Source: Acinetobacter phage vB_Ab_164_KEN_03. From it: a DNA stretch of 41,168 nt. Numbering within the stretch: position 1 is the first letter of the stretch; each line of letters opens with the position of its first letter. Shown one piece after another: positions 34,679-37,078 of the stretch. Made by a program: the position numbers and the translations under genes. The DNA lies in the sequence record PP841139.1, one strand, 5' to 3'. The notes below the pieces were generated by a model. The model was not told the DNA's origin, ran no database searches, and was given only the letters and a program-made list of their open reading frames with translations.

Positions 34679-37078
34679 ATGAATATACTACGCTCATTTA
34701 CAGAGACAGTGGTGACTACACCTACAGATACTTTCCCTATCAGTTTTGAGTATGATGAGAAATATGATGCTGTACATGTCTTTCTTAATGACGTAGCAGT
34801 TGAAGACTTGGGGTACACTGTATCTCAAGTTAATGCTGTTACTCTAAAAATTGAACCTGCTATTCCAGAAGGTACGGTTCGTATTGAACGCGAAACAGAT
34901 ATTGATAAGATGAAGTACATCTTTGATGCTGGTGCGTTATTCATTGACCAGAATGTAGATGCAGATTTTCGACAGATAGTACACTCTCAGCAAGAGGTAC
35001 GTGATGGTTTTATTAAACTACGTGGTGATGTACTACCGTTAGTACACGGTTTACAAGAAGCGCTGAAACAAGCACAAGAAGCGCTGAAACAAGCACAAGA
35101 AGCTAGTCAATCTGCACAAGAGGCTGCGGAAGCTGCTGCGGAAGCTGCTGCAAACGTTACTCAAGGTATCATTACAATCTCTAGTGTAGCTGCGCTACGT
35201 AACACTGCACCACGTACAGTATATGCAGTTATAGACGTACTAGACCACTCTGATAATGGTAGCGGTCTAATCCGTTATCGTTGGATACCCGACATCACTG
35301 ATGAAGATGATAATGGTAAATTTATTAAAGTTAGTACTATCTCCGAAGGTCGGTGGGTTGCACAATACAACGGTTATATCACACCTAAGCATTATGGTGC
35401 TCGTGGGGATGGTACTACGGATGATAGGCTACCGTGTGAAGCATCTATTCACCGTGCTAGTGTGGATGGTCTGGTTTGGTTAGTACCTACAAAGGATAAT
35501 TACTATCTGAATAGTTACACCACATATGCACCACTACAACCTAACTATTCAGCCCGTATCTTACCTTTATTAAGCAACACTATTTACGCAATATACGGTA
35601 AATTAAGTATTGGTACATTCTTTGACGGGTTAGACTTCTTCGTATTTACAGATATACACCAACCTGATGATATTCACACGGAGTTGGTATACAACTGGCA
35701 CATTGTAGGTACAGGTGTAATTGACTTCTCTAAATCTGGTATTCGAGGTGCAGTTTATAAGAATCGTCAAGGCGTCTATTCTAGGGTGTCTGTTGGTGTG
35801 TCTGTTGAGGGTATTACTTTCCTTGATGGGGACTTACCTAGCTGTATCACTACACCTATCTGGGGTAGTGATTTTATTATTAGAAAGTGTAAATTCAAAA
35901 ACTTAATGAGTTCTGATATACATAATGATGATCACTCTACTGTGTACGGTACAGCCCGTAGTACACATGTTATTGATTGTGAATTCGAGATGTCAACCTT
36001 GAACGGTAAACTTAACGCGTGTGCTGTAGAGTTACATAACTCTGATAGTACCTTTAAGGATTCAATAATTAAGGATTACCGCGCTACCCACATTTTAGCT
36101 GCTCTCAGTACTGAAACTGCGTATATTAGCAACATTGAGGTTTGTGGTTTACGTTCTAAGATTTACCGTAACTTTAGTATTCTGGATGTATGGACTGGTG
36201 CTACATTAACTGACTGTAAAGTACATGACAACATTAACATCGTACAACCATTTCCAAGCGATGCTGAATTAATTGCTGCTGGATTTGTACCTAATAATGT
36301 TAAAGGTGCTGCTGCGTTTTTGTATACCACTAATGATTCAGCTATTGGATTTGATTTGGTACAAGGTGAGTGTTATGGCGTGGAGTACTATAACAACCGT
36401 CATGTCTCATTATCAGGTAACAACTTAGCCAGTGAGTTCAAATCTGCAATCTATGTTTATAAACCTATTGGTTTAGGTGTTAAATTACGAGATAATTACT
36501 TTAGCGTATCCCGTATTTACGAGTCTAGTGCTGGTGTACATGACCATATGAGTCGATATAATATACATGACTTCTCATTTGATTATAGTAATATACTCGA
36601 TGTATCTAAGTTAGATCGAGAGTTAGTATTTAACCTGTGGGTTGGTAAGATTAACAATAGCAGTATCAATATTAAATTTGATGCCCCTATTAATCTTAAC
36701 AGGGTAGCTAACTTATATGTGGCTGATGTACCTAACTCAGGTAATGTTGAATTAGCTGTTCATGAACACAATTCGCAGAGTATCGTTAGTGCATTTGATG
36801 TCACACCTGCCTTAGCATCTAAATCAGACGTTTACTTAAGTTACCCTGCAAACGTCACTGTACATGTACCTAACGCGTCTATAGGTATGTCTGATTTCTA
36901 TATGCCTAATATCAAATTTGGTAAGTTGCTTGATAGAGGTACATTACCGACATCCATGACAGTAGGAGACTATGTATACACAGGCGATGCTAATAGTCAA
37001 TTACGGGCTATTAGTACAAATACAAGTAATAGTACAGGTGACTACACTGTTCGATTATATTTAACAAATAGGAGATAA
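34679..37078 (+). CDS. Tailspike protein with a pectate-lyase-like beta-helix (putative capsule depolymerase).
   Basis: Conserved N-terminal adaptor domain. Heptad repeat QEALKQA x2+. Motif ITPKHYGARGDGTTDD, typical of right-handed beta-helix glycanases. Confidence 0.8.
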   Translation: MNILRSFTETVVTTPTDTFPISFEYDEKYDAVHVFLNDVAVEDLGYTVSQVNAVTLKIEPAIPEGTVRIERETDIDKMKYIFDAGALFIDQNVDADFRQIVHSQQEVRDGFIKLRGDVLPLVHGLQEALKQAQEALKQAQEASQSAQEAAEAAAEAAANVTQGIITISSVAALRNTAPRTVYAVIDVLDHSDNGSGLIRYRWIPDITDEDDNGKFIKVSTISEGRWVAQYNGYITPKHYGARGDGTTDDRLPCEASIHRASVDGLVWLVPTKDNYYLNSYTTYAPLQPNYSARILPLLSNTIYAIYGKLSIGTFFDGLDFFVFTDIHQPDDIHTELVYNWHIVGTGVIDFSKSGIRGAVYKNRQGVYSRVSVGVSVEGITFLDGDLPSCITTPIWGSDFIIRKCKFKNLMSSDIHNDDHSTVYGTARSTHVIDCEFEMSTLNGKLNACAVELHNSDSTFKDSIIKDYRATHILAALSTETAYISNIEVCGLRSKIYRNFSILDVWTGATLTDCKVHDNINIVQPFPSDAELIAAGFVPNNVKGAAAFLYTTNDSAIGFDLVQGECYGVEYYNNRHVSLSGNNLASEFKSAIYVYKPIGLGVKLRDNYFSVSRIYESSAGVHDHMSRYNIHDFSFDYSNILDVSKLDRELVFNLWVGKINNSSINIKFDAPINLNRVANLYVADVPNSGNVELAVHEHNSQSIVSAFDVTPALASKSDVYLSYPANVTVHVPNASIGMSDFYMPNIKFGKLLDRGTLPTSMTVGDYVYTGDANSQLRAISTNTSNSTGDYTVRLYLTNRR
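35054..35152 (+). repeat. In-frame 21-nt tandem repeat (2 exact + 2-3 degenerate units) encoding QEALKQA heptads in the tailspike neck.
   Basis: CAAGAAGCGCTGAAACAAGCA x2, then CAAGAAGCTAGTCAATCTGCA and CAAGAGGCTGCGGAAGCTGCT. Confidence 0.8.

What the first reader, a model, noticed from the sequence alone, without database searches (positions are those of the whole stretch)
34679..37078. Tailspike with conserved N-terminal adaptor, expandable heptad-repeat neck and pectate-lyase-like depolymerase domain
The N-terminal about 130 aa resemble a conserved particle-attachment domain. A 21-nt in-frame tandem repeat encoding QEALKQA heptads follows at 35054-35152, prone to slippage and neck-length variation. 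The rest of the protein carries the YGARGDGTTDD-type motif of beta-helix polysaccharide depolymerases. This is the probable host-range determinant. From memory, the N-terminal sequence resembles Acinetobacter Friunavirus tailspikes, which would imply capsule (K-type) specificity.
Basis: partly seen in the sequence, partly recalled or inferred. Interest (0 to 1): 0.5.

Follow-up and report, generated by a model that had tools for sequence, protein, structure and literature searches.

The report
Friunavirus capsule-degrading tailspike with duplicated neck heptad
This gene encodes the tailspike of an Acinetobacter podophage (Friunavirus), a conserved tail-attachment domain joined through a short helical neck to a swappable sugar-cutting beta-helix enzyme that most likely targets the K47 capsule; it is an ordinary but previously uncharacterised member of a well-known class.

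Summary
The ORF 34679-37078 (+, 799 aa) is real and is the tailspike of a Friunavirus. By length and an identical sister-phage protein, the window appears to be Acinetobacter phage vB_Ab_164_KEN_03.

- **N-terminal domain.** Residues 1-125 are at least 95% identical to about 140 sequenced Friunavirus tailspikes.
- **Tandem repeat.** The exact 21-nt repeat is shorter than reported: 35053-35103, 2.4 copies, giving QEALKQA twice.
- **Copy number.** Most relatives carry one copy. At least three independent one-heptad duplications exist in the genus, and none has three copies.
- **Swappable cassette.** Similarity to other Friunaviruses ends at the C-terminal end of the neck (35068-35152) and resumes at the holin ribosome-binding site (37058-37082). 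This delimits a cassette of about 1.9 kb.
- **Enzyme class.** The cassette folds as a right-handed beta-helix closest to the HK620 tailspike (TM 0.8). The HK620 catalytic Asp/Glu pair is conserved as D418/E451. This points to a glycoside hydrolase, not a lyase.
- **Substrate.** Three indirect lines point to K47 capsule:
  - a 93%-identical tailspike that appears to belong to phages lysing only KL47 strains;
  - host sequence type ST164, which is mostly KL47;
  - 42% identity to the K47 hydrolase TaPaz gp79.

Verdict: a new member of a known kind, of modest interest.

The parts
34679..37078 (+). Tailspike (tailspike depolymerase) CDS, 799 aa plus stop
   Evidence: ORF list. PHROG tail spike/tail fiber families, E 1e-90. 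A 100% identical 799-aa protein is named 'Tail spike protein' of phage vB_Ab_164_KEN_02 (P0003). The gene lies between the internal virion protein and the holin.
34679..35029 (+). N-terminal particle-binding (tail adaptor) domain, aa 1-117
   Evidence: >=95% identity in 140 of 172 phage records. phiAB6 TSP 5js4, E 3e-87. Profile hits to tail fibre N-termini in solved podophage tails: 8es4 Gp44 at 7e-12, 8vbx, 23sh. Pfam Phage_T7_tail is sub-threshold, 13.3 bits against 25.2. The AF2 model is unreliable here, pLDDT <50.
35030..35164 (+). Ala/Glu/Gln-rich helical neck, aa 118-162, with heptad periodicity (QEAxxxA units); probable trimeric coiled coil
   Evidence: AF2 predicts a single helix 122-162, but pLDDT is only about 50. 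Two heptad registers place 15/17 and 16/17 hydrophobic or Ala residues at a/d positions. GC is 51% against 38% in the flanks. The segment is not resolved in any crystal structure.
35053..35103 (+). Exact 21-nt tandem duplication (2.4 copies) encoding QEALKQA-QEALKQA-QEA
   Evidence: TRF score 102, 100% match. It is absent (21 nt / 7 aa shorter) in the closest tailspikes MD-2021b, P0004 and phiAB6.
35123..35151 (+). Separate exact 12-nt tandem repeat GCTGCGGAAGCT (2.4 copies) encoding AAEAAAEAAA
   Evidence: TRF. The same repeat is present in MD-2021b and F70-K44, and one residue shorter in TCUAN2.
35165..35392 (+). First domain of the swappable receptor-binding cassette, aa 163-238 (small beta/alpha domain ahead of the helix)
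   Evidence: AF2 pLDDT 74-92. It is conserved in all 20 cassette homologues whatever their N-terminal adaptor. The profile aligns from here with the APK14_gp49 N-terminal domain in 8oq1.
35393..35425 (+). YGARGDGTTDD motif at the N-terminal cap of the beta-helix
   Evidence: Position. G240, A241, G245, D248 and R250 are invariant in 21 homologues.
35393..36610 (+). Right-handed parallel beta-helix catalytic domain, aa ~239-644 (the end is approximate)
   Evidence: AF2 pLDDT is mostly 85-98. Foldseek finds HK620 tailspike at E 5e-25, TM (target) 0.79-0.82, rmsd ~3 A, and APK14_gp49 8oq1 at TM 0.75. phmmer to HK620 gives E 2e-26 and the profile gives 1e-40.
35930..35932 (+). D418, counterpart of HK620 catalytic Asp339
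   Evidence: MAFFT alignment with HK620 gp9, TaPaz gp79 and Cato gp43. Invariant in 21 homologues. D339 is the residue mutated in the HK620 structures listed.
36029..36031 (+). E451, counterpart of HK620 catalytic Glu372
   Evidence: as for D418.
36611..37075 (+). C-terminal beta-sandwich domain, aa ~645-799 (the start is approximate)
   Evidence: AF2 shows long strands 649-796 with pLDDT 87-94. The Foldseek alignment to HK620 spans about 585 columns, including its C-terminal domain. A weak phmmer second stretch aligns aa 714-796 with HK620 512-596.
37058..37083 (+). Right-hand junction of the cassette: the last tailspike codons contain the holin Shine-Dalgarno (TAGGAGA) and are followed by the TTG holin start
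   Evidence: blastn against 26 Friunavirus loci resumes at 37058-37082. Junction sequences are aligned.

Best explanation
The gene encodes the single tailspike of a T7-like Acinetobacter podophage (Friunavirus). It is built from two evolutionary modules.

Module 1 (aa 1-~160) is genus-conserved. It comprises a T7-gp17-like domain that docks the trimer on the tail, followed by an Ala/Gln/Glu-rich helix with heptad periodicity that most likely forms a short trimeric coiled-coil neck. In this phage one heptad (QEALKQA, 21 nt) has been duplicated. The likely mechanism is replication slippage between the ~10-nt 'ACAAGAAGCT' microhomologies that start successive QEA heptads. The insertion is tolerated because a whole heptad keeps the coiled coil in phase. 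It lengthens the neck by about 1 nm and is probably close to neutral.

Module 2 (aa ~160-799, nt ~35150-37080) is a horizontally exchanged cassette. It consists of a small N-terminal domain, an HK620-type right-handed beta-helix and a C-terminal beta-sandwich. It binds capsular polysaccharide and hydrolyses it, with D418 and E451 as the catalytic carboxylates. This lets the virion tunnel through the capsule and sets host range.

The most likely substrate is the K47 capsule, or the closely related K102 capsule. [quoted passage not shown]

Shown here: the ORF, the module boundaries, the repeat and its polymorphism, the predicted fold, and conservation of the catalytic residues.

Inferred: trimeric coiled coil, slippage mechanism, hydrolase chemistry, and K47 specificity.
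For: Identity and context:
- The window is a Friunavirus genome, 92-93% nt identity to APK128, APK116 and others.
- Its length of 41,168 bp equals that of vB_Ab_164_KEN_03. The sister phage KEN_02 has a 100% identical 799-aa tail spike protein.
- Gene order is internal virion protein, tailspike, holin, endolysin, terminase.

Module structure:
- In 26 of 26 Friunavirus comparisons, nucleotide homology ends at 35068-35152 and resumes at 37058-37082.
- 146 of 151 megablast hits cover only the first ~426-474 nt of the gene.
- The cassette is fused to at least 8 unrelated N-termini in prophages, myoviruses and Obolenskvirus.

Neck:
- A helix is predicted at 122-162, and the heptad a/d positions are 15-16 of 17 hydrophobic or Ala.
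- Window/KEN_02 carry 2x QEALKQA with their own GCG-containing unit.
- vB_ApiP_P1 and 1137_KEN_03 carry 2x QEALQQA with a different exact unit.
- fBenAci001 and APK77 carry 2x QEASEAA.
- All other sampled genomes have one copy.
- Indels are exactly 7 aa, except in the fragmented TCUAN2 gene.

Enzyme:
- AF2 pLDDT is 85-98 over aa 160-799.
- Foldseek gives HK620 TM 0.8 and APK14_gp49 TM 0.75.
- HK620 D339/E372 align to D418/E451, which are invariant in 21 homologues.
- The characterised homologues TaPaz gp79 (42% identity) and Cato gp43 (41%) are hydrolytic glycosidases that cleave alpha-GlcNAc-(1->6)-alpha-GlcNAc in K47 and K102.

K47:
- The closest tailspike (93% aa over the cassette) is in five MD-2021b records.
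- Its 2379-nt length, gene order and gene numbering match the Thai phages P515, T17 and T92.
- Those phages lyse only KL47 isolates, 2 of 2, and none of 47 isolates of other K types.
- The isolation host is ST164, a lineage that is 63% KL47 globally and 97% KL47 among NDM-1/OXA-23 isolates.
Against: - No experiment exists on this protein, and the genome announcement gives no K type for the host.
- The link between the MD-2021b records and the KL47-specific Thai phages rests on matching gene lengths, order and numbering. It is not an accession-to-name table, which uses ERS numbers I could not map.
- 42% identity to TaPaz gp79 does not guarantee the same substrate.
- The neck has never been resolved structurally. 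The phiAB6 authors call it a flexible linker, and residues 136-153 were poorly ordered in their truncated construct.
- AF2 confidence for the helix is only about 50, and the model is a monomer.
- Pfam gives no above-threshold hit for any domain in the local copy.
- The genome is a Nanopore-only Flye assembly.
Confidence: 0.82

Rival explanations
1. The enzyme domain is a true pectate-lyase-type polysaccharide lyase acting by beta-elimination, as the first reader's label could be taken to mean.
For: Weak sub-threshold Pfam hits to Pect-lyase_RHGA_epim (16 bits against a cutoff of 27) and Beta_helix (14.9 against 25.9). The GAxGDGxTDD motif is shared with Pectate_lyase_3-type proteins. The literature often labels these tailspikes 'pectate lyase 3'.
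Against: The closest solved structure is the HK620 endoglycosidase, and its two catalytic carboxylates are conserved. All characterised homologues (TaPaz gp79, Cato gp43) and all studied Friunavirus tailspike depolymerases act hydrolytically. K47 and K102 units contain no uronic acid, which beta-elimination would need.
Confidence: 0.04
2. The tailspike is a capsule hydrolase, but its substrate is a K type other than K47 (for example K102 only, or an uncharacterised type carried by the Kenyan ST164 host).
For: The host K type is unreported. 37% of ST164 genomes are not KL47. Identity to the proven K47 enzyme is only 42%. The cassette differs by 7% from the MD-2021b tailspike. The mapping of MD-2021b to KL47 phages is indirect.
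Against: Three independent indirect lines converge on K47: the specificity of the nearest relative, the host lineage, and a characterised distant homologue.
Confidence: 0.25
3. The aa 118-162 segment is a flexible, non-coiled linker, and the 21-nt duplication is a neutral slippage scar with no structural periodicity constraint.
For: The phiAB6 authors describe a flexible linker and saw broken density for residues 136-153. AF2 pLDDT is about 50. TCUAN2 shows a 1-aa length change in the Ala/Glu tract.
Against: All three independent insertions are exactly one heptad, and the a/d positions are almost entirely hydrophobic or Ala over about 6 heptads. The phiAB6 construct began mid-helix, without the upstream part, so disorder there is uninformative. 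The TCUAN2 tailspike gene is broken into fragments and may carry sequencing errors.
Confidence: 0.2
4. The 21-nt duplication is an artefact of the Nanopore-only Flye assembly.
For: The genome was assembled from R10.4.1 reads with Flye, and no polishing step is reported.
Against: An independently assembled sister phage (KEN_02) has a 799-aa protein identical over the 640 residues compared (aa 160-799). One search shows that this protein also carries the duplication. Nanopore errors are mainly homopolymer indels, not clean 21-nt in-frame duplications. Analogous duplications occur in four other phages from four laboratories.
Confidence: 0.04

Closest known systems
Tailspike of Acinetobacter phage MD-2021b records OV298725/765/781/786/630 (probably the KL47-specific Thai phages P515, T515, T17, T92, P92)
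   Same: Full-length homologue: 92% nt, 94% aa overall and 93% over the cassette. Same gene position and same neck sequence.
   Different: It has one QEALKQA heptad instead of two (792 against 799 aa) and about 7% substitutions in the cassette. It is annotated only as 'Uncharacterised protein'.
TaPaz gp79 (K47) and Cato gp43 (K102) tailspike depolymerases
   Same: The same cassette from aa ~160 to the C-terminus, 41-42% identity at 99-100% coverage. The catalytic D/E pair and surrounding NDDHST / ACxVELHNS motifs are identical. Both are experimentally hydrolytic endo-alpha-N-acetylglucosaminidases.
   Different: They sit on myovirus and Obolenskvirus N-terminal adaptors unrelated to the Friunavirus one. 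58% of residues differ, so the substrate may differ.
E. coli phage HK620 tailspike (PDB 2vji, 2x85 and others), endo-N-acetylglucosaminidase
   Same: Same fold over about 585 columns (TM 0.8, rmsd ~3 A). Sequence homology at E 2e-26, and 34% identity over 272 aa. Catalytic D339/E372 are conserved.
   Different: HK620 has a P22-type head-binding N-terminal domain (PF09008) instead of the T7-type adaptor plus neck. It cleaves O18A1 O-antigen, not capsule. The Pfam C-terminal families of HK620 are not detected in the window protein.
APK14_gp49 (PDB 8OQ1), Friunavirus K14 tailspike depolymerase
   Same: Same genus-level N-terminal module and three-domain cassette architecture (N-domain, 14-rung beta-helix, C-terminal beta domain). 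Profile E 5e-52, TM 0.75.
   Different: Only 18-28% identity in the cassette, and a different capsule type (K14).
phiAB6 tailspike (PDB 5JS4) and other Friunavirus tailspikes
   Same: aa 1-~130 are near-identical, and the Ala/Glu-rich neck is the same kind.
   Different: The receptor-binding part is unrelated beyond the neck (K2-specific). It has one heptad fewer.
T7 gp17 tail fibre
   Same: Same position in the genome and virion. The N-terminal tail-binding domain is followed by a coiled-coil segment. HHpred similarity of Friunavirus N-termini to T7 gp17 (7EY9) is reported in PMC10219094.
   Different: The Pfam Phage_T7_tail match is below threshold here. The coiled coil is much shorter, and the distal part is an enzyme rather than a fibre tip.

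Membership tests
Friunavirus tailspike depolymerase | Genus-conserved N-terminal particle-binding domain (about the first 120-160 aa) | tested here: met
   >=95% identity over aa 1-125 in 140 of 172 phage records. 5js4, E 3e-87.
Friunavirus tailspike depolymerase | [quoted passage not shown] | tested here: met
   ORFs and PHROG assignments. Same order in annotated relatives.
Friunavirus tailspike depolymerase | Variable receptor-binding part with a central right-handed beta-helix and a C-terminal domain | tested here: met
   AF2 model, Foldseek, mosaic break points.
Friunavirus tailspike depolymerase | Homotrimer with capsule-degrading activity (halo, oligosaccharide products) | not testable with these tools
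   Only a monomer model was possible, and there is no wet-lab data for this phage.
HK620-type tailspike endoglycosidase (hydrolase) | Significant sequence homology of the beta-helix domain | tested here: met
   phmmer E 2e-26 for aa 246-511. Profile E 1e-40. tblastn 34% identity over 272 aa.
HK620-type tailspike endoglycosidase (hydrolase) | Same three-dimensional fold | tested here: met
   Foldseek TM (target) 0.79-0.82, rmsd ~3 A over ~585 columns. This rests on a predicted model.
HK620-type tailspike endoglycosidase (hydrolase) | Catalytic Asp339 and Glu372 | tested here: met
   They align to D418 and E451, which are invariant in 21 homologues.
HK620-type tailspike endoglycosidase (hydrolase) | P22/HK620-type head-binding N-terminal domain (PF09008) and HK620 C-terminal Pfam families | tested here: not met
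   HK620 gp9 matches PF09008, PF18781 and PF22424, and the window protein matches none of them. It is therefore a relative of the catalytic module, not an orthologue of the whole HK620 tailspike.
HK620-type tailspike endoglycosidase (hydrolase) | Endo-N-acetylglucosaminidase activity | not testable with these tools
   Inferred from TaPaz gp79 and Cato gp43.
Pectate lyase superfamily (Pfam PF12708 Pect-lyase_RHGA_epim / Pectate_lyase_3) | Score above the Pfam gathering threshold | tested here: not met
   16.0 bits against a cutoff of 27, and Beta_helix PF13229 at 14.9 against 25.9. The precomputed family for all homologues is PF27114, which is not in the local Pfam copy.
Pectate lyase superfamily (Pfam PF12708 Pect-lyase_RHGA_epim / Pectate_lyase_3) | Beta-elimination (lyase) chemistry | not testable with these tools
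   Characterised homologues are hydrolases.
T7 gp17 N-terminal tail-binding domain (Pfam PF03906) | Score above the gathering threshold | tested here: inconclusive
   13.3 bits against 25.2 for the window protein. The 48%-identical relative P0002 scores 23.7 bits locally and carries PF03906 in precomputed annotation. HHpred similarity to T7 gp17 is reported in PMC10219094.
Trimeric coiled-coil neck | Heptad periodicity of hydrophobic or small residues in a predicted helix | tested here: met
   Helix 122-162. 15-16 of 17 a/d positions are hydrophobic or Ala in two registers. Indels come in units of 7 aa.
Trimeric coiled-coil neck | Three-stranded parallel assembly | not testable with these tools
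   No multimer prediction was available and no solved structure covers this segment.
K47-specific depolymerases | Specific degradation of K47 capsule | not testable with these tools
   Indirect support only: the nearest relative appears to be in KL47-only phages, the host is ST164, and identity to TaPaz gp79 is 42%.

The most novel reading that the evidence does not exclude
The GC-rich, self-similar QEA-heptad DNA of the neck (51% GC against 38% in the flanks) may have two roles.

First, it may be the genus-wide homologous-recombination linker at which receptor-binding cassettes are swapped. All 26 break points fall in 35068-35152.

Second, it may be a slippage-prone tract that lets the phage change neck length in 1-nm (one-heptad) steps. 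On this reading the recurrent duplications are selected adjustments that fit a newly acquired cassette, or a capsule of different thickness, to the tail.

This would make neck length a second, tunable host-range parameter. I found no description of this polymorphism in the Friunavirus papers I searched for 'heptad' or 'coiled'.
Probability: 0.15. Interest if true: 0.5.

Novelty: new member of a known kind. Interest (0 to 1): 0.3.

Why it matters
Friunavirus tailspikes decide which capsule type of the priority pathogen Acinetobacter baumannii a phage, or its recombinant enzyme, can attack. KL47 is common in the emerging carbapenem-resistant ST164 clone.

No Friunavirus tailspike with proven K47 specificity turned up in my searches. 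The characterised K47 enzyme is from a myovirus. A podophage tailspike that can be assigned to K47 with stated catalytic residues (D418, E451) and clear cassette boundaries (~35150-37080) is directly usable for phage-cocktail design, enzyme production and cassette swapping.

The heptad polymorphism is a small but testable observation about how tailspike necks tolerate length change.

Tried and rejected
- **Word-indexed protein database, N-terminal 175 aa.** It returned only 2 proteins, so it was useless for surveying copy number. I used IMG/VR loci, annotated phage records and a short blastn probe instead.
- **tblastn with the N-terminus.** It stops at aa 125 because the low-complexity filter masks the neck, so it gives no copy-number information.
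- **Megablast equal-length hits.** Hits such as IME546 and APK81 (1-449 in 449 nt) first suggested many two-copy genomes. Inspection showed they are ungapped alignments shifted by one self-similar heptad, and these genomes have one copy.
- **The record labelled vB_AbaP_APK37 (CAWVNJ020000002.1, 79% aa in the cassette).** It suggested K37 specificity. I rejected this because the genuine APK37 tailspike (MK257723 gp44, 822 aa) is unrelated beyond aa ~135.
- **Scan for a three-copy array in IMG/VR.** A degenerate pattern gave 0 hits.
- **Local Pfam.** No above-threshold domain. PF27114, precomputed for all homologues, is absent from the local library, so I could not read its definition.
- **Mapping the MD-2021b SAMEA/5899STDY identifiers to phage names.** This failed because the paper's table uses ERS numbers. 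I relied on gene length, order and numbering instead.
- **Literature search for a solved Friunavirus neck or coiled coil.** It found nothing.
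Full report
**Observation**

The ORF 34679-37078 (+) is present exactly as stated: ATG start, 799 aa, beginning 6 nt after the stop of a 1032-aa ORF. That upstream ORF is an internal virion protein. The downstream ORFs are holin, endolysin, small terminase and large terminase.

Tandem Repeats Finder reports an exact 21-nt repeat at 35053-35103, 2.4 copies, score 102, the top score in the window. It also reports a separate exact 12-nt repeat at 35123-35151.
- two perfect QEALKQA heptads plus QEA;
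- two degenerate heptads, QEASQSA and QEAAEAA;
- an AAEAAAEAAA tract.

The motif YGARGDGTTDD lies at aa 239-249, nt 35393-35425.

**What genome this is**

The window is 92-93% identical at nucleotide level to many Friunavirus genomes, including APK128, APK116 and APK48-3. A 799-aa protein 100% identical to the tailspike (compared over aa 160-799) is catalogued as the tail spike protein of Acinetobacter phage vB_Ab_164_KEN_02. The window length, 41,168 bp, equals that of its sister phage vB_Ab_164_KEN_03. That phage was isolated in Nairobi on an A. baumannii ST164 clinical strain and assembled from Nanopore reads only (PMC11984129).

**Module 1: adaptor and neck**

- tblastn with aa 1-175 finds 172 phage records, 140 of them at >=95% identity over aa 1-125.
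- The phiAB6 tailspike sequence (5js4) is nearly identical over aa 1-~130.
- A small profile reaches tail-fibre N-termini in solved podophage tails: 8es4 at E 7e-12, plus 8vbx and 23sh.
- Pfam Phage_T7_tail stays below threshold, 13.3 bits against 25.2. Published HHpred work links Friunavirus N-termini to T7 gp17 (PMC10219094).

After aa ~118 comes an Ala/Gln/Glu-rich stretch. AlphaFold predicts it as one long helix, 122-162, with pLDDT of only about 50 in a monomer model built from a shallow alignment. Two heptad registers place hydrophobic or Ala residues at 15/17 and 16/17 of the a/d positions.

No crystal structure covers this segment:
- Constructs for phiAB6 start at residue 136, and residues 136-153 are poorly ordered.
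- Constructs for APK09, APK14 and APK16 begin at residue ~153.

The trimeric coiled coil is therefore an inference.

**Copy-number variation**

I read the neck in 29 Friunavirus tailspikes and probed 144 phage records with a 106-nt query.

| Group | Neck state |
|---|---|
| Most genomes | one QEAL[K/Q]QA heptad; the match is 21 nt shorter than the query |
| Window and KEN_02 | two QEALKQA, unit CAAGAAGCGCTGAAACAAGCA; both copies carry a GCG codon where sampled one-copy relatives have GCT |
| vB_ApiP_P1 and 1137_KEN_03 | two QEALQQA, with a different exact unit CAAGAAGCTTTGCAACAAGCA |
| fBenAci001 and APK77 | the next heptad duplicated (QEASEAA twice) |

These are at least three independent duplications, each of exactly one heptad. 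A degenerate three-copy pattern found nothing in IMG/VR.

One-copy genomes such as TCUAN2 carry ACAAGAAGCT twice, 21 nt apart. That is the microhomology expected for slipped-strand duplication. So 'expandable' is true only in the modest sense of a rare, recurrent one-versus-two polymorphism.

An assembly artefact is unlikely. KEN_02 was assembled independently and has the same protein, and similar events occur in phages from other laboratories.

**Module boundary**

blastn of 31000-38600 against 26 Friunavirus loci shows homology at 92-95% up to 35068-35152. It then disappears until 37058-37082 and resumes at 92-97%. Only MD-2021b and the record labelled APK37 align through the gap.

The right junction is the holin Shine-Dalgarno. 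It is encoded by the last tailspike codons (AAT AGG AGA TAA) and is followed by a TTG start.

The cassette (~35150-37080, aa ~160-799) is found fused to at least eight unrelated N-termini. These occur in A. baumannii and A. nosocomialis prophages, the myovirus TaPaz and the Obolenskvirus Cato.

**Module 2: the enzyme**

- With a 21-sequence alignment, AlphaFold gives pLDDT 85-98 over aa 160-799.
- Foldseek against the PDB puts 27 HK620 tailspike entries first: E ~5e-25, target-normalised TM 0.79-0.82, rmsd ~3 A over ~585 columns.
- The Friunavirus APK14_gp49 structure 8OQ1 follows at TM 0.75. All other tailspikes fall far behind.
- Sequence searches agree: E 2e-26 for a single sequence and 1e-40 / 5e-52 for the profile.
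- The HK620 catalytic residues D339 and E372, which are the residues mutated in the listed PDB entries, align with D418 and E451. Both are invariant in all 21 homologues, as are the surrounding N-x-D-H-S and A-C-x-V-E-x-H-N-S positions.
- Pfam pectate-lyase and beta-helix models are sub-threshold.

The characterised homologues are TaPaz gp79 (42% identity) and Cato gp43 (41% identity), each at full coverage. Both are hydrolytic glycosidases that cleave alpha-D-GlcpNAc-(1->6)-alpha-D-GlcpNAc between K units of K47 and K102 (PMC8228797, PMC12111749). HK620 itself is an endo-N-acetylglucosaminidase; this is established knowledge that I did not test here.

'Pectate-lyase-like' is thus right for the fold and wrong if read as the chemistry.

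**Which capsule**

Three indirect lines converge on K47.

1. The closest tailspike (93% aa over the cassette) occurs in five 'MD-2021b' records.
   - In OV298725 the genes _00003 to _00008 have lengths 1938, 309, 558, 336, 2379 and 3099 nt.
   - The Thai phage P515 has the same numbering and the same lengths. T17 and T92 have the same 2379-nt gene in the same place.
   - P515, T515, T17, T92 and P92 lyse both KL47 isolates and none of 47 isolates of six other K types (PMC9027227 Table S2B).
2. The isolation host is ST164. That lineage is 63% KL47 globally and 97% KL47 among NDM-1/OXA-23 isolates.
3. TaPaz gp79 is the proven K47 enzyme.

I could not map sample accessions directly, and the host K locus is unpublished. 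I therefore put the K47 assignment at about 0.65-0.7.

A tempting lead was wrong. The record CAWVNJ020000002.1 is labelled APK37 and shares 79% of the cassette. The genuine APK37 tailspike (MK257723) is unrelated beyond the neck, so no K37 inference is warranted.

**Comparison and novelty**

This is a Friunavirus tailspike depolymerase in every feature I could test. Its catalytic module belongs with the HK620 / TaPaz gp79 / Cato gp43 hydrolases. It is not an orthologue of the whole HK620 protein, because the HK620 head-binding and C-terminal Pfam families are absent.

The protein is deposited and named as a tail spike. Its specificity, catalytic residues and cassette limits had not been described in anything I could find.

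The heptad polymorphism is not mentioned in the Friunavirus papers I searched, and it is a small finding. I rate this as a new member of a known kind, with interest about 0.3.

Noticed in passing
window 51-459 and 40721-41129: An exact 409-bp direct terminal repeat, similar in size to the 381-417 bp DTRs reported for APK phages. About 50 nt at the left end and about 39 nt at the right end do not match each other. The deposited termini are therefore probably not the true genome ends; the announcement says termini could not be determined.
   Followed up: partly
L002 (CAWVNJ020000002.1) versus L029 (MK257723.1): Two records share the organism name vB_AbaP_APK37 but carry different tailspikes. The CAWVNJ record has the HK620-type cassette (79% aa to the window). 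The original APK37 gp44 (822 aa, K37-specific) is unrelated beyond aa ~135. The name of the CAWVNJ record is misleading for host-range inference.
   Followed up: yes
literature: PMC11126041 table versus PMC8228797 and PMC12111749: The 2024 review assigns K47 to TaPaz gp78 and K102 to gp79. The primary paper shows gp79 is the K47-specific enzyme and that gp78 had no identified substrate. This looks like a swap in the review.
   Followed up: yes
window 37058-37083: The holin gene starts with TTG at 37081. Its Shine-Dalgarno (TAGGAGA) is formed by the last tailspike codons (N-R-R-stop). This short conserved stretch is the right-hand junction of the swappable cassette in all relatives.
   Followed up: partly
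L022 and L023 (fBenAci001, APK77), gene nt ~396-440: A different 21-nt duplication, of the next heptad (QEASEAA twice). This shows that the slippage is not confined to one heptad of the neck.
   Followed up: partly
L027 (TCUAN2, ON531987.1) 2501-5100: The tailspike region of this A. nosocomialis phage is annotated as several short ORFs (312 aa and fragments). Its last ~40 nt match the 3' end of the window tailspike (37038-37134, 97%). It is possibly a frameshifted or degraded relative of the same cassette, or the record carries sequencing errors.
   Followed up: no
window 35054-35158: The neck-coding DNA is 51% GC in a genome of 39% GC. Its flanks are 38% GC.
   Followed up: no
window 37990-38388: The mechanical ORF list extends the small-terminase ORF to a GTG at 37990 (132 aa). 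Relatives annotate a 309-nt gene, which corresponds to a start at 38080, and the 102-aa version matches the PHROG small terminase end to end.
   Followed up: partly
P0005-P0014 (A. baumannii and A. nosocomialis genomes): The same depolymerase cassette (47% identity) is widespread in chromosomal, presumably prophage, genes with several unrelated N-termini. One cluster has 63 member sequences and another has 59.
   Followed up: no
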